A stretch of 45,637 nucleotides of DNA from IMG/VR virus record IMGVR_UViG_3300045988_028519; one strand, 5' to 3'. This document shows, one piece after another, positions 13,685 to 40,667 of the stretch; within the stretch, counting starts at the first letter, position 1; each line of letters begins with the position of its first letter. The notes under the pieces were generated by a model. It made no database searches. It saw nothing but the letters and a program-made list of their open reading frames with translations, and was not told the DNA's origin. This DNA is from a virus. Both the position numbers and the translations under genes were made by a program.

Positions 13685-14065
13685 TTACTCTGTATCTGTC
13701 ATTTCGTCATCATCGAGCAGCTTAACCGTGATCGTCTGCGCTCCTACGATTTCCCGGCGCTCGATAAACGCGCCAATGCTCCGTGCGCGCAGCTCAGACG
13801 CTTTCAGACGGTCTTTTATATCCGCCTTATCATTACGCATGGTATCGCTCCAAAACGCGTTAATCTCCGCCATATCCGCCACACGGGCACGATCTAACAG
13901 CTCGTCGCGGTCTGATACGTATTTGCTTAGTTTTGCTAAGTTTTGCGCGCCTATCGTGTGGTGATTATCTCCCTTGTAACCGGCAAGCCGTGCCGCCTCT
14001 GTAGCTGTCTTGCCTTGCTTGTAATAATCAATCCATGCCCGCTGTTTTGCGGTCAGCTTGTCCAT
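13685..14065 (-). CDS. terS: Terminase small subunit (Terminase_2-like)
   Basis: MDKLTAKQRAWIDYYKQGKTATEAARLAGYKGDNHHTIGAQNLAK.. is the typical N-terminal HTH of small terminases. Start chosen at the ATG after AAGGGGTGA. Confidence 0.8.
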   Translation of the reverse strand: MDKLTAKQRAWIDYYKQGKTATEAARLAGYKGDNHHTIGAQNLAKLSKYVSDRDELLDRARVADMAEINAFWSDTMRNDKADIKDRLKASELRARSIGAFIERREIVGAQTITVKLLDDDEMTDTE

Positions 14066-14093
14066 ACTCTCACCCCTTACTATATATAGACAC

Positions 14094-14130
14094 AAAAAAG
14101 CCGCCCCGGTTACTTGGAGCGGCTTTTGTC
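14094..14130. terminator. Bidirectional hairpin terminator between the RHH gene and terS
   Basis: AAGCCGC (14098-14104) pairs with GCGGCTT (14119-14125). An A-run lies on one side and a T-run on the other. Confidence 0.55.
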
Positions 14131-14146
14131 TGCCTACAATATGTTG

Positions 14147-14329
14147 TCACTTGTCCATGTCTGCCGTTATCAGCTTATAGACGTAGCTGTTCAGGCTCTC
14201 GCCCTTGCTGGCTGCATACTCCTTAATGCGTTCGCGTTCTCCTTTGGGTACTACGATATTAAGCCGATCGTATGCTTTCGCGTTATACTTATTACTCGCC
14301 CGTGTTCGTGCGTTTGGGTCAACTGCCAT
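14147..14329 (-). CDS. Ribbon-helix-helix (Arc/CopG-type) DNA-binding protein
   Basis: 60 aa. YDRLNIVVPKGERERIKEYAASKGESLNSYVYKLI matches the RHH strand-helix-helix pattern. Confidence 0.7.
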   Translation of the reverse strand: MAVDPNARTRASNKYNAKAYDRLNIVVPKGERERIKEYAASKGESLNSYVYKLITADMDK

Positions 14330-14364
14330 GGTATCACCTCCCTGTTATAGTGTACCACAGCCGT

Positions 14365-14448
14365 TATCATTGCTCAATTATACAATTCCACTAAATATCA
14401 TTGCTCAATTATGTTTACTTTACCTATTGCGTATCATTGCTCAATGAT
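14365..14448. promoter_or_regulatory. Three palindromic operator-like sites, TATCATTGCTCAAT(T/G)AT
   Basis: Copies at 14365-14381, 14396-14412 and 14432-14448. The third contains the perfect inverted repeat ATCATTG-CT-CAATGAT. All three lie in the divergent intergenic region next to the RHH gene. Confidence 0.65.
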
Positions 14449-14510
14449 ATATACTGTAATCACAACAAAGGAAAACACAAACCACCGAAAACAAAATGGA
14501 GGTACACACC

Positions 14511-14666
14511 ATGTTAAACACTAAGACCCTTACCGAGAAGAAAACCACAGCGCTCACCATCTACAAGGCAGCCAAAGCCGCTTACCTTGCAGACCAGAGC
14601 AAAGAAAACTGGATCACATTCTGTGACGCTCGCCGCACCTGCATGTTACTCGGTGTACGCATTTAA
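14511..14666 (+). CDS. Small hypothetical protein (51 aa), first gene of a plus-strand cassette
   Basis: ATG 8 nt after GGAGG. The product is MLNTKTLTEKKTTALTIYKAAKAAYLADQSKENWITFCDARRTCMLLGVRI. Confidence 0.5.
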   Translation: MLNTKTLTEKKTTALTIYKAAKAAYLADQSKENWITFCDARRTCMLLGVRI

Positions 14667-14679
14667 GGAGGTAATCACA

Positions 14680-14886
14680 ATGGCCATCATTAACAAGACT
14701 TTCGCCATCGGCGACACCTACCGCGGCACTCGCGGCGATCTCTTTACCGTAACCGCCACCGGCACACGCAAGATCAACGGCACGCGCCGCACGAGCACCG
14801 CAACCGTCACCCTCACGCACGAGGGCGGCAAGGCTTACGAACTCGACCTCTCCCACGCACAGTGCCTCTTGCTTGCCAAGTGCTAA
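14680..14886 (+). CDS. Small hypothetical protein (68 aa)
   Basis: ATG after AAGGAGG. The product starts MAIINKTFAIGDTYRGTRGDLFTV... Confidence 0.5.
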   Translation: MAIINKTFAIGDTYRGTRGDLFTVTATGTRKINGTRRTSTATVTLTHEGGKAYELDLSHAQCLLLAKC

Positions 14887-14944
14887 AGGTTCTTATTAAC
14901 CAACCACCCGCCCCGGAGGAACGAGGGCAGAAAGGAAAACCATC

Positions 14945-15214
14945 ATGACTAAGCTAATCGCCATTATCGCCGCCCTGCTGCAGATCGTACCGGCCACCCG
15001 CACCATCTCCGGCGAGGTGTACCGCATCGACTACCCGACCGGCACGCAGGACGCGCCTATTGTTACCATCGTCACCGAAGACGGCCACGAGTGGATCACA
15101 GATGACTACATCGCACCGCGTCACACGCCGCTTGAGATCACATTCAGCACCAACAGCACCGCGGACGTAACCGACGACGAGATCATCTTCATTACATCCA
15201 CCTGGACGCGTTAA
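14945..15214 (+). CDS. Small protein with an N-terminal hydrophobic (signal/TM) segment
   Basis: 89 aa. The product starts MTKLIAIIAALLQIVPA.. and has an acidic C-terminal part. Confidence 0.5.
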   Translation: MTKLIAIIAALLQIVPATRTISGEVYRIDYPTGTQDAPIVTIVTEDGHEWITDDYIAPRHTPLEITFSTNSTADVTDDEIIFITSTWTR

Positions 15215-15298
15215 GCATGGGAGCCTCACCGCTCCCTCTCATTCTCCCGCCCGGCTCACGCACCCGCGTCAGAGTATTTTCTAAATAGCATAGCAAAC

Positions 15299-15328
15299 CC
15301 CGCTCACCAAAGCCATAAGGTGAGCGGG
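15299..15328. terminator. Perfect 10-bp hairpin, probable bidirectional terminator ending the plus-strand cassette
   Basis: CCCGCTCACC (15299-15308) pairs with GGTGAGCGGG (15319-15328). It is followed by ATTTGCC on the plus strand and GTTTGCTATGCTATTT on the minus strand. Confidence 0.5.
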
Positions 15329-15334
15329 ATTTGC

Positions 15335-16365
15335 CATATTATACGACTGTTTCGGTTTTGCAGGACTCGCACCTGCTTTCAGCACTATGCAAACCGGTAT
15401 ACCTCCACAGGGAGGTATGAACGCTATCGTCGCGTCTGTACGTCGGGCTTTTACCGAGGCTTGCGCCGCTGTCCAGAACGGTTGTATGAAATCCAGAGAG
15501 GTATTACCTCACTTTCGCAAGTTTACTTGTGTTCCGTCCTGTGATTAGGTATGCTTACAAGAGATAAACAGACTGGTGCTCTTTCGCGGCGTGTACTTAG
15601 CCGCCCGAAAGCGCCGTATCGGCTTTGTAACTTTGTACCGGTGGTTTTGCTCTCGGCTCACTAAGTCCGTGTGAGTGCTTATCCGGGCAGCACTCGCCCT
15701 CTCATTATGGGCTGTTCGGCGTTGCTCTCCGTCGTGTCGCAGTTGCTATCGGTCTGTAATCCGGCTGATTTCCTCGTAAGGTTACAGCGGGGAGCGACCC
15801 CGGTCGCGGCGTGCCTGCAAGCACCCGCTGAACTCTGCAAAGCTGTTGCAGCAGCTCCGCATACGTTCGGAAACAGATTGTCCGTCTTTCCGGACCGCCA
15901 GAATATTATCGTCCTCGTTGGAGGCGTTGTGCTCCCTCCGCCTCATGCAGCTTTGGGAACAGATCGCCTTGCACGTCGTCCGTCATGCAAGGCTTGCCAA
16001 AAGTCCGCCACATTTCCCTTGGCTAAAAAGGTTCCATACGTTACCCGTCCGGCCTCATGCAGCCATTCGGGCATGTTTGCGGTGACTGTTGCCCGCAGGC
16101 ACCGCATCCCATTCTCAATTTTTAGCGTGAATATTATTACTCCGTCACCCTCATGCAGGCTTTGGAGCATATCGGCGTGCCGCGCAAAAGACACGCCGAA
16201 AGAATAGAAAGGATAATCAATGCCTTCGTTCCGTGAAAGGCGCTCCGCCGCCCTCATGCAGACTTTGGAGCAGGTCAGCGGCAGGATTTCCCCGCCGCCT
16301 AAAACGGGACTTTGGGTAGAAATGGAGGAACGAAACTCCGTGATTCTGCTCTTACGAGCTTTTAT
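15335..16365. ncRNA. Candidate large structured non-coding RNA or structured leader (strand unresolved)
   Basis: This is about 1 kb without a credible ORF in a tightly packed genome. It has many perfect 5-10 bp hairpins, alternative pairings and four tandem structured units. It is bounded by the 15299-15328 hairpin and an extended -10 at 16375-16383. Confidence 0.4.
15941..16298. repeat. Four tandem imperfect units (112, 96, 103 nt apart): box CCTCATGCAG-NYTTYGGRRCA plus a hairpin 24-26 nt downstream of the box start
   Basis: Boxes start at 15941, 16053, 16149 and 16252. The hairpins are 15966-15993, 16078-16106, 16173-16198 and 16278-16298. Confidence 0.85.
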
Positions 16366-16374
16366 CACAATACT

Positions 16375-16383
16375 ATTATAACA
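16375..16383 (-). promoter_or_regulatory. Extended -10 element (TGTTATAAT) on the minus strand; the -35 is poor
   Basis: The reverse complement of 16375-16383 reads TGTTATAAT. It would fire into the repeat region. Confidence 0.3.
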
Positions 16384-16422
16384 CCAGTTTTTGTGGTATA
16401 GTGTGGTAAGTTTTCCACAGAT

Positions 16423-16779
16423 TCATGCACAATCTGTTAATAACTTCTCCACTTCCCGCAGGGCGCGAACGTGCATCCGTCCGCGCACATGATCCTCGTT
16501 ATAGTGAATCTTTTCGGCGGTCTCTCTCCACGTCCGACCGTTTACATAGTGCTCGATCAGCAGTGCCCGCAGCGCCGCGTCCTGTACTTTAGCCGTTGTG
16601 CTGATGATCTCGGCCTTAATCAGTGCAAGCCGTTCCTGTTCTCTCTGTATCTTCTCGCTGAGTGCAAGGTAAGCATCGGCTTTGTTTGCGGTCACGTCAC
16701 CACCGCCGCCCGGCGTGTCCTTGATCGTCGCCGTTGCGCTTGTCGCCCGCGTCCACGCCCTTACTCTTGCTTCCTCCAA
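16423..16779 (-). CDS. Late-gene transcriptional regulator, sigma-70 region-4 / DUF1492-like
   Basis: The C-terminus LLIEHYVNGRTWRETAEKIHYNEDHVRGRMHVRALREVEKLL fits the sigma-r4 HTH of phage DUF1492/RinA-type activators. The annotated start is TTG, and the true N-terminus is uncertain (see findings). Confidence 0.6.
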   Translation of the reverse strand: MEEARVRAWTRATSATATIKDTPGGGGDVTANKADAYLALSEKIQREQERLALIKAEIISTTAKVQDAALRALLIEHYVNGRTWRETAEKIHYNEDHVRGRMHVRALREVEKLLTDCA

Positions 16780-33935: not shown

Positions 33936-36900
33936 TTATCCGCCATACCCCGGAATAACCGTTCTCGGGTCAATGCTCTGTCCGTTCTTATGCACTCTCA
34001 GGTGTAGGTGCGGAGCGGAGCTGCTGCCGGTGGAGCCGATCACGCCGACCTGCTGACCTGCGCTTACCGTGTCTCCCTGCTTAACCGTAGCCTTCTGCAA
34101 GTGACCGTACAGCGAGGTATAGCCGTCGCCGTGGTCTACCACAACATAGTTGCCGTAGCCGTTCTCGTCGTAGCCAACCTCAGTAACCTTACCGCCGCCG
34201 ATACTGTCCGCCGCCTGACCGTTCAGATTGCCGCCTGTGCCGCCAATATCAATACCGTCATGATTGGTGCTGCTGTAGCCTTTCGAGGTCTTGACCGCGT
34301 TTCTGCCGCCGTATCCGCTGGTTACAACCGAGTTGCTTGCCGTAGTCGGATTAACAAATCCCGCGCTGCTGGTTTTCTGCGAAGCCGATGAACGGTTTAC
34401 ATTGATTCCGGTGTTCAAACCGCTATCTTCCGGCAGCTTGCCGCCGCTGGTGTAATAGCTATCAATCTTCTTTTTGCCGAGCGCGTGCATAACCGCCGCA
34501 TACTGATCGTAACTGGAAACCATTTTGCTTACCACTGCACCCATCGCAGCAATTTTAGCGTTCTTTTCTCCGCTCTTATAAGGTGCTGCATTAGCGGCTG
34601 CCTTAATCTGCGCATACTGCGTAGCGGAAATTCCCACGTTCTTTACCTCACTGATATACTCCTTCTCTGCCTTTGTGCCGTCGGAAGTAAGCATATCAAA
34701 AGTATAATTAGCCGGGTCTGCCTTGACCATGCTATAAAATTTGAACGTGTTTTCAAGAGCTTCTCTCTTCTCTGCGCTGTATCCCTTGGCATCGAGATAA
34801 CGCGAAAACTCCGTAGCCTCCAAAGAAGCGCGTCCCTTCTCGATATCCTCACCTTCCTTGGTGATCGCCTGCTTCTGAATCATTGCATCGACGTATTCCT
34901 CAGCCGTCACCTTGCCGCTGATTTCGGTATACTTATCCCACTGGCTCTGCGACGTACCCTTGATAAGCAGCGAGTGATACAGGCCGTTCTTCTCCTGATC
35001 GGAAAGTGAGCTGTCAGCCTTGATTGCACTGAATACCTGGTCTCGTGCTTCCCAGCCCTCCATATCGTTGTTCAGGCTGTCCTCCATCTCCTTGTAGGCG
35101 TAGTACAAACCCGGCTCAATGCCGCTTTCGCTTACAATCTTCGTTGTGCCGTCCAGTTCCTTCTTGTATACCTTGTTTGCCGCAATCGCCTTGGCATACT
35201 TGTAAATATCCGCAACCGCTTCGATTCTCTCATCGTTCGACATTTGCTTGTACGCCTCGGATTTTGTCAGCTTGTCGATTGCATCCAACGAGATTTTACC
35301 GCTCTGGCTTGTCAGTGTGGAATATTCCTGCGCGGTGAGGAACTTCTTCGTGCCGTCCTCAGCCTTGTAATACTTCTGCGGCTTGCTTGGCAAAACAGAG
35401 TTGTCGCCGGTTGCCTGATACAGCTCTTTGAGCGTCTTTTCTGCCTGTGTGCCCTTTGCATCCGCCAGATAGCCCGGCGAGAAGAAGTTGTACGCCGCGC
35501 GTGCGAACACGTTGTCCGGTCCGTTCTTCTGTTCTCTGCCCCAAACATCCGTATATGCAGGCTGATACTGCGACAGTCCCGGAATTTTGTTCGCCTGCCG
35601 CTGCAAGAACTTCTGCACGCTCGACGGAACAGGACTGTTCTTGTCCGCATAGGTGGTTCTGCGCGTGTTGTCCACCGTCCGCGCAACCTGACCGAACAGC
35701 GTCGGCACGAACTGACCGCCAAAGTTGGTTGCAACGTTGCTTGCAATGCCAAACAACGGATTGCTCTTGCTGTATGCCGCGCTCGTAACCGTCGAGCCAA
35801 TGCCAGACAGCATCGTCATATTGAGCATCGGGTCGAACATGCGGCTGACCGTTGCCATTGCCTGATTGAACGCGGTTTCCTCGTCGTCGTACTTCTGGTT
35901 CAGTGCTTCATACAGCTCGCCGCCCATCGCAAGCGGCACAACAGCCGGAGACGCCCAGTCAATCGTGTACGACTTGCCACCGATGTTGATTGCATACTCC
36001 TGCTGACCCATGCCCGCATCAAAGTTTGCTTCCTTGTCGTCGTCGCTCGAGCCTGCAGAGAACAAACCTTGCGCTGCAAGGAACGCGCCGAGCGCCGCAA
36101 CGCCCGAACCGGTGAGACCCTGTCCGATATGGTCGATCATCTTCGTTGCGTCCATATTGCCCTTCTTGACCTGTACCGCGTCATAAGTGATTGCTTTCAG
36201 CAGACCGACCGGTGACAGCTCAAACGAGCGTTTTGCAACGTTGATTGGCGTGCGTTTGAACGGCACAAGTGAGCCGATAATAACTTCTGTTGCCTTGTTC
36301 TTCTTTTCCAGTCGGCTGAGCGTGTCCGCCAGTGCCGACGCATCCTGAAACGTTGCAATCTTCGCGTCCTGAATCGCGTGCTGACGCGCCTCGTTCAGCT
36401 GTGCTTCCGTGAGGTTGTTTACGTCCCAGCCGCGCGCCGTCAGGAAGTTACCCATGCTGTCAATGTAGGATTTCTTCTTAAAAACCTGATCTTCCGCGTC
36501 AAGCGCCCATGTGTTCGCGTCCATCACCTTTTGCAGCGGCTTCGGAAACAGCTTCTGCCGCTGCTTGATTTCGCTCATTTCGGTTTTGTAGGCATTGCCG
36601 CTGAGTTCCGTCTCGACGTTTGCATAGTCCGCCTTGGCAAACTGCTTTGCCGCCTTGCTTGTATGCAGCGCACGGGTTCGCTTTTCCTTTGGCAAAAACT
36701 TCTGACCTACTGCCGAAACCTTGTGACTGGTATCGAGCGCCGCCGCAGAGGCTACGTTGCCCATAATGTTGCGGATATGTGTTCTCGGATTGCCGAGCAT
36801 CGCAAAATAGCGCCATGCGTTCAGTCTGTCGCCTGCCGTCTTAGGAATCTGCTGCGCAACGTCATTGTAAATCTTGTCTACAACCGCGTCGCGTGCTTCC

Positions 36901-39900
36901 TGCGTCTCCGCGTTCAGAAACTCCTGCACCAAATCCTCGTTCAGCTTGAGGCCATACTGGTCCGCAATATCTTCCGCCGGGACACCCTGCTTTTTCGCAG
37001 CCTTTCCCGCCTGCTTGTCAAACCGCGACTGATACTCCTGCTGAATCTTCTGTACAGCCTTCTGCAAGTAGTAAAGCTGACCTTCCGGCGTGGTCTTTTT
37101 GAGCAGCTTAAACGCATTTACACCGCGTCCGAGTGCCGTGCCCTGCACCGCAAGGTCACCCGCGAGCTTCATTGCCGTCTGCGTGTCGCCCGCTTCGACC
37201 GCCGCCGTATACATCATCTGACCGAGTGCAATATCATCGTCCGTAACGGCTCTGCGGCCGTCCGTCACTTCCTCCCACTGGTCAAACGCGCCCTGCCATC
37301 CCTTCTTCTGAATGGTTTTCGTCGCACCGCTGAGCGTTTTTTTCAGCGACTTCACATCATGTGAAAACAAACCCTCTGCGACGTGGTTTTCCAGTGCCGG
37401 AATGAGGCTGTCAGGTGTCACGCCGCTTTCCATGATCGTTCTTGCAACATTGCTTACTTTGTCCGTGCCGTCCGTACTTTGCGGCACATCCACCATGCGT
37501 GCCGGGTTCATGCCCTCCGGAATCGCGCCGTAATCATTGACCATCTTGGAATACGGGTCAAATCCGGTTTCCGCCGCACCCACCGAGCTTTCCGCATTCA
37601 CTTCCGCTTTTGTCAGCTTGGGGTTAATGTCCGCCTGCTGTGCCGCCGCCTGCGCGTTTTCCTGCATCGGCTGTGTAATTTCCGGCGGTGCAGTCTGAAC
37701 GCCCGTCTGCACCGTCTCAGCCCCCGCACGGGTCAGCTTCGGCATAATGTCGTTCCGCGCCTGCTGCACATCCGCAAGCGTCGGTGCGCTCTGCGTCTGA
37801 CCGGCTCTCTGCATCGGGCTCAGGTTGATCGGAGCCGCCGTCGCGCCCTGCATTACCGGGCTGATAATATTCCGGTCGAGTCTTGCGTTGGTGTCCTGAA
37901 TATTTGCCGTGTGTGCAGGTGTGCCGCGCTGCACCACCAGATTACCATCTACAATCTGTGCAGAGATAACATTTTCGCCCAGTGCATTTGCTGCCGCCTG
38001 AATCTCCAATGCGGTCTGCAAGTCCTGCGCCAGTTCTGCGCTGATAAACTGACCGCCGCCGCGCTGAATATCTGCTTTTACCAGCTGTGCCGCAACCTGC
38101 GCCGCCTCGGCTCTGCTCGGTGCCTTGCCGTTCTTCTTGTAGTAGTCGGAGTACCACTTTTCGTTGTTGCTTGCTCTAAAACTGGTTCCGTCTGCGTTCC
38201 ACACAACAGACGTACCCTGTGGCGTGTAGCCTCTTACATACTGTTCCGCCGACTGCAATGCCTGATTGTATTCCTCAAACGTAGAATCAACAATTTCATG
38301 TGTTACCTGCTGAATGCTGACACCGGTTTTCTCCTGATTAGCCGCAAGAAGCTTCGCCCACTGCATTTCGGCATCGCTCAAACCGCCGTTCGGATTACCC
38401 GCATCATCCACCGAAAACCGTGGAATCGTCTGCGTTTCATCCACCTGTGCCGCAACCTTCGTCAATCCGCTGCGTCCCACTGGCAGATAACCGGTCGGAA
38501 GGGTTTGCGATACCTGTCCGTTCTGGCTTGCATACAATACACTGCCGCTGTCCGGCGCAGACGTGAAATCGCCGCGCAGATTTCCGTACAGTACGTCCGG
38601 TGTATCCGCATTGTTAAATGCACGCAGATTGTTCGCAACACCGCCGTTCTCGTTCGCATACAACGTGTTAGCCGTGCGCGTGTTGCCCTCAGGCAGTGCA
38701 AGCCGCTGTGCCGTCGGGAGTGCCTGCGACGTGTTCGGGTGCAGTCGATTGTCCATCTGCTCTGCCGCCCGCACATCCGCATTTGCGTCATGAATAGAGG
38801 TGGTTGTCTCAGCCGGTGCAGTGCCGTATCTCCGGTTTGCCAGCCGTTCCGATACCGCGTTTGCGCCCTGCATAATGCCTGCAAGCGTCATGCCGCCCTT
38901 TGCACTGTCCCAAAGCTCCTGTGCAGTTGCGTTCTGTGCGTTCTTGTCGTAGGTAGCGCGTTTCAGATAGGGATTGATAAGCGTGCTCGCTGCTTCCTCC
39001 ACGCCCTCACCGAGAATATCAAACGCCTTGTTGAGAATCTTGCTCTTGCTTCCCAGCTTTGCAACGCCCTCGTTCAGTCCAGGAATACCGCCGAACATCT
39101 TCTCTGTGCCGACTTCGGTTAAGCCGCTGCCCGCACCGTAAGCAAGCGCCTGATTGAGACTTGCGCCGTCGTTCAGCGCCTCGCGTGCACCACTCGCCGC
39201 AGAATCGCCAAAGATTGCCGCTAAACTTGCATTCGCAAGAGGTGCTTTATCCAGCAGAGAGGAAACCTTGCTTGCCGTGCCGGTTGCCGCACCAAGCGCC
39301 ATGCCCGGCAGCATACGCGCACCGGAACCAGCAAGCTCCTGCGCTTTCTTTGCCATACCGACAGGCTGTGCCCAGTCGTTCACCTTCTGCATTGCAGAAT
39401 CCGCAAAGCTGGTGTTTGCCGTGTTCTTTGCAACATCTTCCCAGAACTGGCCAGCATCCTGATTGCCCGCCAGTTTCAGCGCGCCGCTCAGTGCGTTTTC
39501 AGCTGCAGAGGTGACATAGCGTGCTCCGTTTTCTACCGCACCCGCTGCATTGAGTGCTGCATTTGCAACGCCGCTTCCCCACGCCTTGCCCGCACTTTGC
39601 TTGCTGATCGCATCCGCTTCATCGTTCAGCCGCTTGTACAGCTGATACATCGCGTCCGCCTGTTTTTTGTTCGTCGTGCTCATCTTGCTGTACTGGTCAT
39701 CGCCGTTAATACCGGCAGCCGCCAGTTTCGGATGAGAAATCAGCCACGGCACCGCAGCCAGCTTTTCTCCTGCATTGCGGTTTTTCATGTCCATAGCGAT
39801 CAGATACGGATACTGCTTCTGCATCCGGTCAATCTCGTTGTTCAGTTCGTCATACCGTGACTGTCTCTGCTCCTGCGTCTGATAGTTCTGCCCAAACGCT

Positions 39901-40667
39901 GCATTTCTCGCCGTCTCAACCACCGGCTTGGAAACATTGGTCTTTCCGCCACTGGCTTTTGGCAGATACGTCGCGCCGGTATCGCCATTGTACGTCATGC
40001 CGAACTTCTTGCGGATACGGTCGTTAGCCGCGTGCAGGCGTGTCTTTTCTGCTTCATCCGACGTGTTGTGCCACGCCATGGAGTTGGCATTCAGCGTATC
40101 AATCGCTTTCTGCCGTTCTTCCTTCTCATTCCACGTCTTTCCGGTGCCGGTTTTCGTCGCCGCCATCTGATTCCGTGTATTGATCGTGCGGTTTGCATCT
40201 GCCGCTCTGCCAGCCCGTGCACGTCTATCGTTTGACCGCAGCGGCGTGTACACCTGCTGTGCCGCAGCATAAGGCGTTGCCTTTCTGGTACTGCCGCCAG
40301 TAAGGTAATTACTGCCCTGTCTCAGCGTCGTGCTCTGCCGTCTCTCCGCATCCGCCTTGCGGGCTGCACTTGCACGGCGGTCTATGGTGGTCTTGGCACC
40401 TCCGTTTTTTGAGCCGCCGAATGAGCTGCCCAGCGAGCTGTTCATCCGCGTTTTGCTTACCGTGCTTCTGGTCGTTCCTGTGCTCTGCCGTGTATTTCGG
40501 CTTCCCGTGCTTCCGCCGCCCTTTGCGGAGATTTTCTGCTTCGGTGCGTTCTTGTGCGTCGCGTTGTACTGCTGAATCAGCGCCTTGTTCTGCTTCTGTT
40601 TTGCTTTGATCTTAGCGTTTTTCTTTGCCTGTTCAAGCTGCTCTCTGCGGCCCTTGCTTAATGCCAT
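33936..40667 (-). CDS. Giant virion-associated multidomain protein (2243 aa) with a C-terminal M23 peptidase; putative ejection/internal-core protein
   Basis: The M23 motifs are HDGIDIGG and SSSAPHLHLRVH at the C-terminus. The N-terminus is extremely basic, and the central region is long and conserved-looking (WRYFAMLGNPRTHIRNIMGN..). Confidence 0.75.
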   Translation of the reverse strand: MALSKGRREQLEQAKKNAKIKAKQKQNKALIQQYNATHKNAPKQKISAKGGGSTGSRNTRQSTGTTRSTVSKTRMNSSLGSSFGGSKNGGAKTTIDRRASAARKADAERRQSTTLRQGSNYLTGGSTRKATPYAAAQQVYTPLRSNDRRARAGRAADANRTINTRNQMAATKTGTGKTWNEKEERQKAIDTLNANSMAWHNTSDEAEKTRLHAANDRIRKKFGMTYNGDTGATYLPKASGGKTNVSKPVVETARNAAFGQNYQTQEQRQSRYDELNNEIDRMQKQYPYLIAMDMKNRNAGEKLAAVPWLISHPKLAAAGINGDDQYSKMSTTNKKQADAMYQLYKRLNDEADAISKQSAGKAWGSGVANAALNAAGAVENGARYVTSAAENALSGALKLAGNQDAGQFWEDVAKNTANTSFADSAMQKVNDWAQPVGMAKKAQELAGSGARMLPGMALGAATGTASKVSSLLDKAPLANASLAAIFGDSAASGAREALNDGASLNQALAYGAGSGLTEVGTEKMFGGIPGLNEGVAKLGSKSKILNKAFDILGEGVEEAASTLINPYLKRATYDKNAQNATAQELWDSAKGGMTLAGIMQGANAVSERLANRRYGTAPAETTTSIHDANADVRAAEQMDNRLHPNTSQALPTAQRLALPEGNTRTANTLYANENGGVANNLRAFNNADTPDVLYGNLRGDFTSAPDSGSVLYASQNGQVSQTLPTGYLPVGRSGLTKVAAQVDETQTIPRFSVDDAGNPNGGLSDAEMQWAKLLAANQEKTGVSIQQVTHEIVDSTFEEYNQALQSAEQYVRGYTPQGTSVVWNADGTSFRASNNEKWYSDYYKKNGKAPSRAEAAQVAAQLVKADIQRGGGQFISAELAQDLQTALEIQAAANALGENVISAQIVDGNLVVQRGTPAHTANIQDTNARLDRNIISPVMQGATAAPINLSPMQRAGQTQSAPTLADVQQARNDIMPKLTRAGAETVQTGVQTAPPEITQPMQENAQAAAQQADINPKLTKAEVNAESSVGAAETGFDPYSKMVNDYGAIPEGMNPARMVDVPQSTDGTDKVSNVARTIMESGVTPDSLIPALENHVAEGLFSHDVKSLKKTLSGATKTIQKKGWQGAFDQWEEVTDGRRAVTDDDIALGQMMYTAAVEAGDTQTAMKLAGDLAVQGTALGRGVNAFKLLKKTTPEGQLYYLQKAVQKIQQEYQSRFDKQAGKAAKKQGVPAEDIADQYGLKLNEDLVQEFLNAETQEARDAVVDKIYNDVAQQIPKTAGDRLNAWRYFAMLGNPRTHIRNIMGNVASAAALDTSHKVSAVGQKFLPKEKRTRALHTSKAAKQFAKADYANVETELSGNAYKTEMSEIKQRQKLFPKPLQKVMDANTWALDAEDQVFKKKSYIDSMGNFLTARGWDVNNLTEAQLNEARQHAIQDAKIATFQDASALADTLSRLEKKNKATEVIIGSLVPFKRTPINVAKRSFELSPVGLLKAITYDAVQVKKGNMDATKMIDHIGQGLTGSGVAALGAFLAAQGLFSAGSSDDDKEANFDAGMGQQEYAINIGGKSYTIDWASPAVVPLAMGGELYEALNQKYDDEETAFNQAMATVSRMFDPMLNMTMLSGIGSTVTSAAYSKSNPLFGIASNVATNFGGQFVPTLFGQVARTVDNTRRTTYADKNSPVPSSVQKFLQRQANKIPGLSQYQPAYTDVWGREQKNGPDNVFARAAYNFFSPGYLADAKGTQAEKTLKELYQATGDNSVLPSKPQKYYKAEDGTKKFLTAQEYSTLTSQSGKISLDAIDKLTKSEAYKQMSNDERIEAVADIYKYAKAIAANKVYKKELDGTTKIVSESGIEPGLYYAYKEMEDSLNNDMEGWEARDQVFSAIKADSSLSDQEKNGLYHSLLIKGTSQSQWDKYTEISGKVTAEEYVDAMIQKQAITKEGEDIEKGRASLEATEFSRYLDAKGYSAEKREALENTFKFYSMVKADPANYTFDMLTSDGTKAEKEYISEVKNVGISATQYAQIKAAANAAPYKSGEKNAKIAAMGAVVSKMVSSYDQYAAVMHALGKKKIDSYYTSGGKLPEDSGLNTGINVNRSSASQKTSSAGFVNPTTASNSVVTSGYGGRNAVKTSKGYSSTNHDGIDIGGTGGNLNGQAADSIGGGKVTEVGYDENGYGNYVVVDHGDGYTSLYGHLQKATVKQGDTVSAGQQVGVIGSTGSSSAPHLHLRVHKNGQSIDPRTVIPGYGG

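What the first reader, a model, noticed from the sequence alone, without database searches (positions are those of the whole stretch)
15335..16420. About 1.05 kb of ORF-poor, hairpin-dense sequence in an otherwise tightly packed genome: candidate large structured RNA
- **Context:** almost everywhere else in the genome genes abut or overlap by 1-11 nt. This region lies between the late regulator and the packaging genes and has no ORF with an RBS.
- **Boundaries:** a perfect 10-bp hairpin at 15299-15328 on one side and a minus-strand extended -10 (TGTTATAAT, 16375-16383) on the other.
- **Perfect local helices in the left 600 nt:**
  - ATACCTCC-ACAG-GGAGGTAT (15399-15418).
  - CTTTCG..CGAAAG plus a 4-bp extension (15581-15611).
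  - GTGAGTGC/GCACTCGC (15671-15697).
  - CTGTAA/TTACAG (15754-15787).
  - GCGAC-cccg-GTCGC (15794-15807).
  - GCGG-C-GTGC/GCAC-CCGC (15806-15828).
  - CTGCAA-agctg-TTGCAG (15835-15851).
  - GTCCG/CGGAC (15880-15895).
- **Alternative pairings:** GGAGGTAT at 15411 could instead pair with TACCTC at 15505, and CGGCG at 15587 with CGCCG at 15612.
- **Known precedent:** large ornate RNAs (ROOL, GOLLD) are known to reside in Firmicute prophages. I cannot say from memory whether this matches either. It is longer than both.
- **Strand is unresolved:** the G-U pair in 15671-15697 works only on the plus strand, and the one in 16278-16298 works only on the minus strand.
Basis: partly seen in the sequence, partly recalled or inferred. 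Interest (0 to 1): 0.7.

Follow-up and report, generated by a model that had tools for sequence, protein, structure and literature searches.

The report
New 1-kb structured phage RNA gene
The gap is a real, conserved gene for a roughly 1.07-kb non-coding, heavily folded RNA carried by a common family of human-gut temperate phages; it matches no described RNA family, and its function is unknown.

Summary
Window 15295-16383 is non-coding, hairpin-dense and sharply bounded.

- **Boundaries:** an invariant extended -10 promoter (TGTTATAAT, 16383-16375, minus strand) and a 14-bp intrinsic terminator (15332-15295).
- **Conservation:** the block is 90-94% identical in more than 70 related IMG/VR phage contigs, even where the adjacent regulator gene is only about 70% identical. 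A diverged second clade keeps the same architecture.
- **Not coding:** variable sites show no codon periodicity (98/105/96), against 34/31/95 in the neighbouring gene. Indels of 1-2 nt dominate, and open frames are not conserved.
- **Strand:** the RNA sense is the minus strand, judged from fold z-scores, consensus folding energy and G·U usage.
the 5' half holds 4 copies (5 in most relatives, 2-5 overall) of a roughly 100-nt module. Each module is a variable hairpin followed by a second hairpin whose loop carries the invariant CUGC-RY-GAGG. The second hairpin pairs in 94% of cells, against 31-48% in slid controls, with compensatory changes.
- **3' half:** it contains covarying hairpins, including a tRNA T-arm-like hairpin.
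- **Known families:** Rfam 15 gives no match, so it is neither ROOL nor GOLLD. No tRNA genes lie nearby.
- **Function:** unknown. My best guess is a multivalent scaffold or decoy RNA.

The parts
16375..16383 (-). Extended -10 promoter, TGTTATAAT. Clade A consensus is TGGTATAAT and clade B is TGATATACT. The inferred transcription start is near 16368.
   Evidence: Sequence. The TATAAT is invariant in 61 variants, and clade B has an equivalent. The start site is inferred, not mapped.
16340..16368 (-). 5' hairpin P1: outer stem GUGAU/AUCAC, inner stem GCUC/GAGC.
   Evidence: The inner stem covaries: GCUC/GAGC, GCCC/GGGC, and GCUCC/GGAGC in clade B. The outer stem is GUGAU/AUCAC in clade A and GUGG/CCAC in clade B.
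16324..16339 (-). Small hairpin GGAG-UUUCGUU-CCUCC. In most relatives a further repeat unit (R0, 72 nt) sits directly 3' of it, between 16317 and 16316. This window lacks R0.
16242..16299 (-). Repeat unit R1: hairpin Pa 16277-16299, hairpin Pb 16242-16271, decaloop CUGCAUGAGG 16252-16261.
16198..16241 (-). Hairpin GCCUUUC-ACGGAAC-GAAGGC followed by a pyrimidine-rich tract, AUUGAUUAUCCUUUCUAUUCUUUC. Together these look like a terminator.
   Evidence: Conservation profile: identity 0.997 for 16240-16211. Terminator-like hit.
16139..16198 (-). Repeat unit R2: Pa 16173-16198, Pb 16139-16168, decaloop 16149-16158.
16043..16105 (-). Repeat unit R3: Pa 16079-16105, Pb 16043-16072, decaloop 16053-16062.
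   Evidence: One Pa pair takes C-G, U-A and A-U in different relatives.
15931..15993 (-). Repeat unit R4: Pa 15966-15993, Pb 15931-15960, decaloop 15941-15950.
15865..15903 (-). Second hairpin type, UUCUGGCG-GUCCG-GAAAGA-CGGAC-AAUCUGUUUCCGAAC. It is conserved in both clades and duplicated or triplicated in clade B.
   Evidence: Two pairs switch U-A/C-G and C-G/U-A, 16 against 16 sequences.
15754..15860 (-). Central helices: 15835-15860, 15806-15828, 15794-15807, and CUGUAACC/GGAUUACAG at 15754-15787.
   Evidence: Hairpin 15836-15861 has 3 pairs with compensatory changes. Clade B has CCUGC/GCAGG at the place of the 15754-15787 stem.
15480..15753 (-). More variable middle segment, partly replaced or deleted in clade B. 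It contains hairpins at 15671-15697, 15581-15611 and 15498-15510.
   Evidence: Highest density of variable sites: 77-93 per 150 nt. Helices kept. Clade A/B alignment.
15399..15467 (-). 3' domain hairpins: GNRA-loop hairpin 15458-15467; 15443-15457; 15421-15435; AUACCUCC-CUGU-GGAGGUAU 15399-15418.
   Evidence: pair 53-62 is GC24/CG18/UA16, pair 55-60 is CG21/GC19/AU18, pair 63-77 is UA43/CG15. Clade B has AUACCGC/GCGGUAU.
15349..15396 (-). Outer stem CGGUUU/AAACCG (15391-15396 with 15353-15358) enclosing a T-arm-like hairpin, GCAGG-UGCGAGU-CCUGC (15360-15376).
   Evidence: Clade B has UGCAGCC/GGCUGCA enclosing CRCGG-UGCRAUU-CCGYG. Three stem pairs are compensated between the clades, and the loop UGCRAKY is conserved.
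15283..15332 (-). Intrinsic terminator: a 14-bp stem, a 10-nt loop, then GUUUGCUAUGCUAUUU. It can also terminate the converging plus-strand genes 14496-15214.
   Evidence: (inverted repeat I1). Conservation of the block ends here, and variable cargo begins just beyond it.

Best explanation
**What is shown.** Window 15295 to about 16368, minus strand, is a stand-alone gene for a roughly 1.07-kb non-coding structured RNA (about 1.14 kb in most relatives).
- It has its own host-type (sigma-A, extended -10) promoter and its own intrinsic terminator.
- It sits between the late-regulator gene and the packaging genes of a temperate phage. A closely related prophage lies in a Subdoligranulum variabile MAG, which suggests an Oscillospiraceae host.
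- The RNA is modular. It starts with a 5' hairpin.
- Next comes an array of 2-5 units of about 100 nt (4 in this window). Each unit is a variable-sequence hairpin plus a second hairpin that presents the invariant loop CUGC-RY-GAGG above a purine-rich internal loop.
- A central multi-helix region follows.
- The conserved 3' domain holds several hairpins, one of which looks like a tRNA T-arm stacked on a 6-7-bp stem.
- Non-coding evolution, conservation, the sense strand, and base pairing of many helices are all shown here.

**What is inferred.** The RNA acts in trans as a multivalent scaffold or decoy.
- The repeated identical loops would bind several copies of one partner: a host or phage protein, an RNA, or other copies of the same RNA.
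- The 3' domain would give stability or a second function.
- Because the promoter needs no obvious phage factor, the RNA may already be made in the lysogen.
For: **Conservation**
- The block is 90-94% identical in 70+ contigs, including those whose regulator gene is only 68-70% identical. Homology ends at the terminator.
- The same architecture occurs in a diverged clade B.

**Non-coding**
-.

**Sense strand**
- Fold z-scores are -3.1 and -3.8 on the minus strand, against -0.5 and -2.3 on the plus strand.
- Consensus folding energy is -361.8 kcal/mol for the minus sense and -300.8 for the plus sense.
- Helices hold many G·U cells and few A·C cells.

**Pairing**
- In hairpin Pb, 94.1% of cells pair, against 31-48% when the partner columns are slid. 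Three of 7 pairs have compensatory changes, and 0 of 500 shuffles reach the observed covariation score.
- In the 3' domain, 13 of 32 predicted pairs have compensatory changes.
- Further compensated helices are listed.

**Loop motif**
- The core occurs only in this region of the phage, 4 copies against 0.47 expected.
- In about 1000 unit occurrences only AU, GU, AC and GC are seen at the two central loop positions, and the eight fixed positions rarely vary.

**Unit number**
- It varies from 2 to 5, with clean unit hybrids. This fits redundant, additive binding sites.

**Promoter and terminator**
- Both are conserved in both clades.
Against: - There are no expression data, so the transcript, its ends and its abundance are all inferred.
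- No partner is identified. No complementary target exists in the phage genome. The loop lacks the GGA motif of CsrA-type sponges.
- The family is confined to one phage lineage in two clades, so many helices are invariant and untested. The long-range helices may be spurious.
- Most pairs come from local hairpins. The RNA may be less ornate than ROOL or GOLLD.
- The gene always follows the regulator gene, and its first 50 nt change together with the regulator allele. This also fits a cis-regulatory role.
Confidence: 0.6

Rival explanations
1. The region is a cis-acting leader of the late operon, analogous to lambda PR'-6S RNA-tR'. A constitutive promoter just after the regulator gene makes a terminated RNA. 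The regulator then modifies RNA polymerase at or near this promoter, so that it reads through the terminator into the packaging genes. On this view the structured RNA is mainly the by-product or the platform of that switch.
For: - Gene order is regulator, promoter, RNA, strong terminator, then late genes on the same strand.
- The regulator's best Pfam hit is Phage_antitermQ, E = 3.9e-4.
- The promoter and first 50 nt co-vary with the regulator allele.
- In L286 the RNA is followed on the same strand by a small ORF and then terS/terL.
Against: - The Q hit is below Pfam's threshold (20.8 against 26 bits) and covers only the HTH. NCBIfam and PHROGs point to a sigma-70 region-4-like activator.
- A read-through switch does not need 1 kb of conserved, covarying structure or 2-5 repeated loops.
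- In this window and most relatives, opposite-strand cargo genes lie between the terminator and the late genes. A promoter-like divergent region lies at 14330-14495.
Confidence: 0.15
2. The region is a precursor that is cut into several small RNAs, one per repeat unit, and/or released at the tRNA-like 3' element by RNase P or RNase Z. The loop sequence would be a shared seed.
For: - The units are modular and separated by short conserved linkers.
- There is a T-arm plus acceptor-like stem near the 3' end.
- ARAGORN takes this element in L049 for part of a permuted tmRNA.
- There is an internal terminator-like hairpin with a U-rich tract after R1.
Against: - No complementary target for the loop exists in the phage.
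- There is no CCA end, and no tRNA call in the window or in 56 other loci.
- Processing cannot be judged from sequence.
Confidence: 0.12
3. The region is a DNA-level site: an array of protein-binding sites at about 100-bp spacing for the small terminase (a pac region), for a replication protein or for the regulator. On this view the hairpins are incidental palindromes.
For: - The repeat spacings of 96-112 bp are close to whole numbers of helical turns.
- The region lies upstream of terS.
- Inversions of hairpin loops show DNA-level palindrome dynamics.
Against: - The substitutions keep pairing through G·U, which is valid on one strand only.
- Stems covary while their sequences differ between units.
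- A promoter and a terminator frame the block exactly.
- The core lies in a loop rather than in a palindrome.
- The pac sites of the best-studied headful phages (SPP1, P22) lie inside the small-terminase gene (from memory).
Confidence: 0.05
4. The region is a decayed protein-coding gene, with repeats of about 33 aa that read xLxxLHEG on the minus strand.
For: The repeat cores translate to similar peptides in minus-strand frames (reading).
Against: - The repeats fall in different frames (spacings 112, 96 and 103 nt).
- There is no codon periodicity, and 1-2-nt indels are common.
- There are no family hits.
- No relative carries an intact long ORF in a consistent frame.
- The block is more conserved than real genes nearby, which is the opposite of decay.
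Confidence: 0.02

Closest known systems
GOLLD RNA (Rfam RF01998) and ROOL RNA (RF03087)
   Same: All are large (over 500 nt), conserved, structured non-coding RNAs of unknown function carried by prophages and phages (PMC5737381, PMC12286853).
   Different: - There is no sequence or structure match to either model, at gathering score or at E <= 10.
- There are no neighbouring tRNA genes.
- It is longer: about 1.07-1.14 kb, against an average of 581 nt for ROOL and over 800 nt for GOLLD.
- It is built largely from a variable number of tandem hairpin modules, not from multistem junctions and pseudoknots.
- It is so far known from one gut-phage lineage only.
Multi-hairpin sponge RNAs (CsrB/RsmZ type) and prophage-encoded anti-sRNA sponges (from memory)
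   Same: Several copies of one short motif are displayed in hairpin loops along one transcript. The copy number varies, and the RNA has its own promoter and terminator.
   Different: - The loop motif is CUGC-RY-GAGG, not A(N)GGA.
- The RNA is three to five times longer and carries a large non-repetitive 3' part.
- No partner is known.
Lambda PR'-6S RNA-tR' late leader
   Same: It lies directly after the late regulator gene. A constitutive-looking promoter is followed by a strong terminator upstream of the late genes.
   Different: - It is 1 kb rather than 194 nt (lambda figure from memory), and has conserved covarying structure.
- The regulator is not a demonstrable Q-family protein.
Type III antitoxin repeat arrays (ToxI) and phage pseudo-ToxI (from memory)
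   Same: It is a tandemly repeated non-coding RNA in a phage, with variable copy number.
   Different: - The units are about 100 nt, only 66-84% alike over the 38-nt core and separated by unique sequence.
- There is no adjacent endoribonuclease gene.

Membership tests
ROOL RNA (RF03087) | Match to the Rfam covariance model | tested here: not met
   No Rfam hit in the window at gathering score, none in 15100-16600 at E <= 10 apart from two chance miRNA hits on the terminator, and none in four related loci.
GOLLD RNA (RF01998) | Match to the Rfam covariance model | tested here: not met
GOLLD/ROOL | Frequent location next to tRNA genes | tested here: not met
   No tRNA in the window or in 57 related loci.
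Large structured non-coding RNA (operational class) | Non-coding evolution of a conserved block of more than 500 nt | tested here: met
Large structured non-coding RNA (operational class) | Base pairs supported by compensatory substitutions | tested here: met
   Support covers many local hairpins. Long-range pairs and pseudoknots are not established.
Large structured non-coding RNA (operational class) | Expressed as a discrete transcript | not testable with these tools
   Only the promoter and terminator sequences are available.
CRISPR array or CRISPR-repeat mimic | Near-identical 28-37-nt repeats with 30-40-nt spacers | tested here: not met
   The repeats are 66-84% alike over 38 nt and are spaced 96-112 nt apart. 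Tandem Repeats Finder finds no array.
Type III toxin-antitoxin (ToxIN-like) | Directly abutting repeats followed by a toxin endoribonuclease gene | tested here: not met
CsrB/RsmZ-type sponge | GGA motif in the repeated hairpin loops | tested here: not met
   The conserved loop is CUGCRYGAGG. GGA occurs only irregularly in the flanking stem.
tRNA or tmRNA | Cloverleaf or tRNA-like domain with a CCA end, recognised by ARAGORN or Rfam | tested here: not met
   None in the window. The only call is one implausible permuted-tmRNA call of 716 nt in L049. Only a T-arm-like hairpin on a 6-7-bp stem is present.
Lambda-type Q antitermination module | Q-family protein encoded directly upstream | tested here: inconclusive
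   PF06530 scores 20.8 bits, below the 26-bit cut-off. Other hits are sigma-70 region-4-like. No PDB relative was found.

The most novel reading that the evidence does not exclude
The RNA is a self-assembling or multivalent particle-forming RNA, in the manner of the ROOL and GOLLD nanocages. Its 2-5 identical loops would mediate loop-loop contacts between units or between molecules. Alternatively they would capture several copies of a host RNA or protein, such as a tRNA anticodon loop or a ribosomal component.

The loop centre C-RY-G is CAUG, CGUG or CGCG in clade A, each of which can pair with itself. That would make this the third, and longest, class of phage ornate RNA, and one that is abundant in the human gut. 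The CACG loops fixed in clade B do not fit simple self-pairing.
Probability: 0.15. Interest if true: 0.9.

Novelty: new variant of a known kind. Interest (0 to 1): 0.72.

Why it matters
Very few bacterial or phage non-coding RNAs exceed 500 nt. When ROOL was described, only ribosomal RNAs, GOLLD and group II introns were said to be longer and more structurally complicated (PMC5737381). ROOL and GOLLD have since turned out to form RNA-only cages (PMC12286853).

This RNA is longer than either and unrelated to both. It is built on a different plan: a variable number of tandem hairpin modules followed by a unique 3' domain.

It sits in a phage lineage that is common in human gut metagenomes. The neighbouring regulator protein, with exactly this sequence, is recorded in 708 blocks of the assembly collection. 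The RNA motif itself was found in 83 metagenome contigs, most of those with a source label being human-gut assemblies.

It gives a defined, testable candidate for what large phage RNAs do. The repeated invariant loop is an obvious handle for pull-downs and mutagenesis.

Tried and rejected
- **Rfam.** Searches of the window, of the region at E <= 10 and of four related loci found nothing real.
- **tRNA/tmRNA search.** Nothing in the window.
- **Tandem Repeats Finder.** Nothing, because the units are too diverged and unevenly spaced.
- **blastn against 50,697 GenBank phages.** No match. The closest cultured-phage TerL match found (tblastn) is under 50% identical over about half the protein.
- **Protein family searches of the two long ORFs.** Nothing.
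- **Search for an RNA target of the loop, or of any part of the RNA, in the phage genome.** Only chance-level matches.
- **Triple-core pattern scan of IMG/VR for further clades.** The only new loci (L180-L190) are repeat-protein genes, nearly all with a 15-nt (pentapeptide) period, and are false positives.
- **Genome scan for the host.** There was one real hit, a Subdoligranulum variabile MAG (L178). None of the other five matched the window by blastn; at least three (Puniceibacterium, Pseudomonas, Arthrobacter) are unrelated taxa.
- **Palindromic kissing-loop idea.** It is only partly consistent, because CACG loops are fixed in clade B.
- **Pairing between the linker and the loop.** Checked by eye and found inconsistent between units.
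- **MAFFT alignment of clade A with clade B.** It is out of register in part of the 3' domain, so the T-arm and the AUACC hairpin were compared by explicit parsing instead.
- **Global alignment folding.** It proposes long-range helices, for example 16317-16330 with 15933-15945. I do not rely on these.
Full report
**1. What is in the sequence**

Genes around the region run on the minus strand.
- A 118-aa protein at 16423-16779 is a sigma-70 region-4-like phage transcriptional regulator. It hits phrog_36 at E = 4.5e-10, has weak sub-threshold hits to Phage_antitermQ and sigma-70 families, and has no PDB relative.
- The small terminase is at 13685-14095 (Terminase_2), preceded by an Arc-like gene at 14147-14329.
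- Between them lie the 1.05-kb gap and a small plus-strand gene set (14496-15214). That gene set converges on the hairpin at 15299-15328.
- The window is a temperate phage. It has a tyrosine integrase, a CI-like repressor, an ERF recombinase, a PBSX-type large terminase and a P22-like portal. It has no close cultured relative.

**2. More than chance**

- As RNA, the minus strand folds much better than shuffled sequence: z = -3.10 for 15920-16330 and z = -3.76 for 15335-15930.
- The plus strand does not: z = -0.54 and -2.26.
- Their core, CTGCRYGAGG on the minus strand, occurs four times in the 45.6-kb window. All four are here, against 0.47 expected.

**3. Conserved and not coding**

- The repeat core and the regulator protein each retrieved about 75-100 IMG/VR contigs.
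- In those contigs the stretch 16316-15282 is 90-94% identical to the window. This holds even in the 17 loci whose regulator gene is only 68-70% identical. Homology stops at the terminator, beyond which the cargo differs from phage to phage.
- Column identity is 0.98-0.997 across 16300-16180.
- Among 61 distinct variants, the longest open frames change strand, frame and length from one relative to the next.
- Variable sites are spread evenly over the three phases: 98/105/96, p = 0.8. No 150-nt window shows periodicity. In the same loci the regulator gene gives 34/31/95, p = 2e-11.
- One- and two-base indels are the commonest.
- The two long ORFs have no Pfam or PHROG relatives.
- Gene callers on independent assemblies leave the gap empty or call only short, inconsistent ORFs.
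- A decayed or hidden protein gene is therefore very unlikely.

**4. A transcription unit on the minus strand**

- The extended -10 element (TGTTATAAT in the window, TGGTATAAT in the clade consensus) has an invariant TATAAT. It lies 40 nt after the regulator's stop codon.
- The block ends in a 14-bp G+C-rich hairpin followed by GUUUGCUAUGCUAUUU.
- A diverged clade B has an equivalent promoter (TGATATACT) at one end. At the other end it has a different terminator hairpin that is just as strong.
- The consensus folding energy of 32 full-length sequences is -361.8 kcal/mol for the minus sense and -300.8 for the plus sense.
- Helices hold many G·U cells, which would be A·C mismatches on the other strand. 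The count is biased, because the structure was predicted on the minus sense.
- The start site near 16368 and the existence of the transcript are inferred, not observed.

**5. Anatomy**

*(a) 5' end.* Hairpin P1 (16340-16368) has inner and outer stems that differ compensatorily among the window, the clade A consensus and clade B.

*(b) The repeat array.*
- Each unit has a hairpin Pa whose stem sequence is different in every unit, then a 4-6-nt linker, then hairpin Pb.
- Pb is a 5-6-bp stem, a purine-rich internal loop, 1-3 further pairs, and the ten-base loop.
- In a gap-free alignment of 53 distinct units from both clades, 94.1% of cells pair, against 31-48% when the 3' partners are slid by 1-3 columns.
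- Three of the seven pairs show changes on both sides: U-A/C-G/U·G, C-G/G-C, and G-C/C-G/U·G/A-U. None of 500 shuffles reaches the observed covariation score.
- Pa also keeps its pairing. One position in R3 is C-G, U-A or A-U in different phages.
- Most relatives have five units. The window lacks the first one (R0, 72 nt, between 16317 and 16316). Other relatives lack R2 or R3 through clean unit-to-unit recombination.
- Among distinct clade A sequences the copy numbers are 5 (31 sequences), 4 (19), 3 (5) and 2 (6). Clade B has 2-4.
- A census that left the two central loop positions free found only AU, GU, AC and GC there, at 658, 228, 41 and 30 occurrences. The eight flanking loop positions rarely vary.

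*(c) After R1.* A short hairpin is followed by a pyrimidine-rich tract (16198-16241). Column identity is 0.997 across 16240-16211, the highest in the block.

*(d) Centre.* A second conserved hairpin type (15865-15903) occurs once here and two or three times in clade B. It is followed by a set of central helices, several with compensatory changes.

*(e) Middle.* A more variable segment at 15480-15753 is partly replaced in clade B.

*(f) 3' domain (15349-15467).*
- A GNRA-loop hairpin has two pairs that each take three Watson-Crick forms. Overall, 13 of 32 predicted pairs are compensated.
- The hairpin GCAGG-UGCGAGU-CCUGC has a 5-bp stem and a 7-nt loop of consensus UGCRAKY. It differs from a tRNA T-arm consensus (GG-UUCRANY-CC, from memory) at one loop position.
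- It is enclosed by a 6-bp stem here and a 7-bp stem of different sequence in clade B. Three stem pairs are compensated between the clades.
- ARAGORN mistakes this element in one clade B locus for part of a permuted tmRNA.

**6. Distribution and host**

- The genome scan found the element in a Subdoligranulum variabile MAG. That prophage shares 77-93% identity with the window over several kb.
- The metagenome scan returned 83 contigs. Most of those with a source label are human-gut assemblies, and many are 42-50 kb.
- The regulator protein, with exactly this sequence, is recorded in 708 blocks of the assembly collection.
- A looser triple-loop scan of IMG/VR found no further clade.
- So the family is abundant but phylogenetically narrow.

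**7. What it most likely does**

- Shown: it is a conserved, non-coding, base-paired, strand-specific element framed by a promoter and a terminator.
- Inferred: it is a trans-acting RNA whose array of identical loops binds several copies of one partner.
- The reasoning has three parts.
  - The stems are free to change, whereas the loop is fixed.
  - The number of units varies without loss of the element.
  - The motif occurs nowhere else in the phage.
- I found no complementary target in the phage genome. The partner would therefore be a protein, a host RNA, or other copies of the loop.
- The promoter looks like a host sigma-A promoter, so expression in the lysogen is plausible.
- I put about 0.85-0.9 on a structured non-coding RNA gene and about 0.3 on the multivalent scaffold/decoy mechanism.

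**8. Rivals**

- *Lambda-like late leader with antitermination.* This fits the gene order and the co-variation of the first 50 nt with the regulator allele.
  - It does not explain 1 kb of conserved structure.
  - The regulator is not demonstrably a Q protein.
  - Opposite-strand cargo usually separates the terminator from the late genes.
- *Processing into small RNAs.* It cannot be excluded from sequence.
- *A DNA-level site.* It is disfavoured by the strand-specific wobble pattern and by the loop position of the motif.
- *A decayed gene.* It is essentially excluded.

**9. Comparison with known RNAs**

- The closest kind is the large phage-borne RNAs GOLLD and ROOL (PMC5737381, PMC12286853), but every membership test failed. 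There is no covariance-model match and no tRNA neighbourhood. The modular hairpin-array build is also different.
- It works, at most, like a multi-hairpin sponge, but it lacks the CsrA-type motif.
- I found no description of it in the paper library.
- I rate it a new variant of a known kind: a new class of large phage non-coding RNA.

**10. Caveats**

- There are no expression data.
- Narrow phylogeny leaves many helices invariant.
- The relatedness of the sequences inflates shuffle-based statistics. The slid-partner control is the fairer test.
- Tertiary structure, pseudoknots and long-range pairs are unresolved.

Noticed in passing
window 15268-15282, just 3' of the terminator on the minus strand; compare L104, L105, L113, L117, L277-L286: This is an insertion hot spot. 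In relatives, 0.8-1.6 kb of differing cargo sits exactly here, mostly on the opposite strand. The cargo includes weak DnaJ-like and HTH_3 proteins and a 485-aa protein with a faint (unconfirmed) double-zinc-ribbon hit. The flanking sequence 15243-15268 stays 100% identical.
   Followed up: partly
window 15399-15418 and 15295-15332; L105/L172 and L158 in alignment A2: Hairpin loops are inverted in some relatives while the stems are kept. Examples are CCUCC-CUGC-GGAGG against CCUCC-GCAG-GGAGG, and the terminator loop UUAUGGCUUU against AAAGCCAUAA. This suggests palindrome-mediated template switching.
   Followed up: no
window 16198-16221 (minus strand): This pyrimidine-rich tract, AUUGAUUAUCCUUUCUAUUCUUUC, is highly conserved. 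Its CCUUUCUA resembles the 3' tail of Firmicute 16S rRNA (from memory). Clade B keeps UUCCUUUCG at a similar place. The meaning is unknown.
   Followed up: no
L049 3264-3979: ARAGORN calls a permuted tmRNA that starts in the T-arm-like 3' domain of the clade B RNA and runs 560 nt past its terminator. The call as a whole is implausible, but it independently flags the tRNA-like element.
   Followed up: partly
window 33936-40667 (minus strand): A 2243-aa ORF with a C-terminal M23 peptidase domain, probably a tail or injection protein. It lies next to the integrase gene.
   Followed up: no
L180-L190: The pattern CTGCRYGAGG repeated three times also picks up repeat-protein genes in unrelated viral contigs, nearly all with a 15-nt (pentapeptide) period. 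This is a trap for pattern searches with this motif.
   Followed up: yes
window 16324-16480 compared with L157-L173: The recombination breakpoint between regulator alleles falls inside the RNA gene, at about 16316-16324. As a result the promoter, P1 and the GGAG/CCUCC hairpin travel with the regulator gene, and the rest of the RNA does not.
   Followed up: partly
window 14330-14495: This region looks like a divergent promoter. It lies between the plus-strand cargo genes and the minus-strand Arc-like and terS genes, with promoter-like hits on both strands. It may be where the late operon starts.
   Followed up: no
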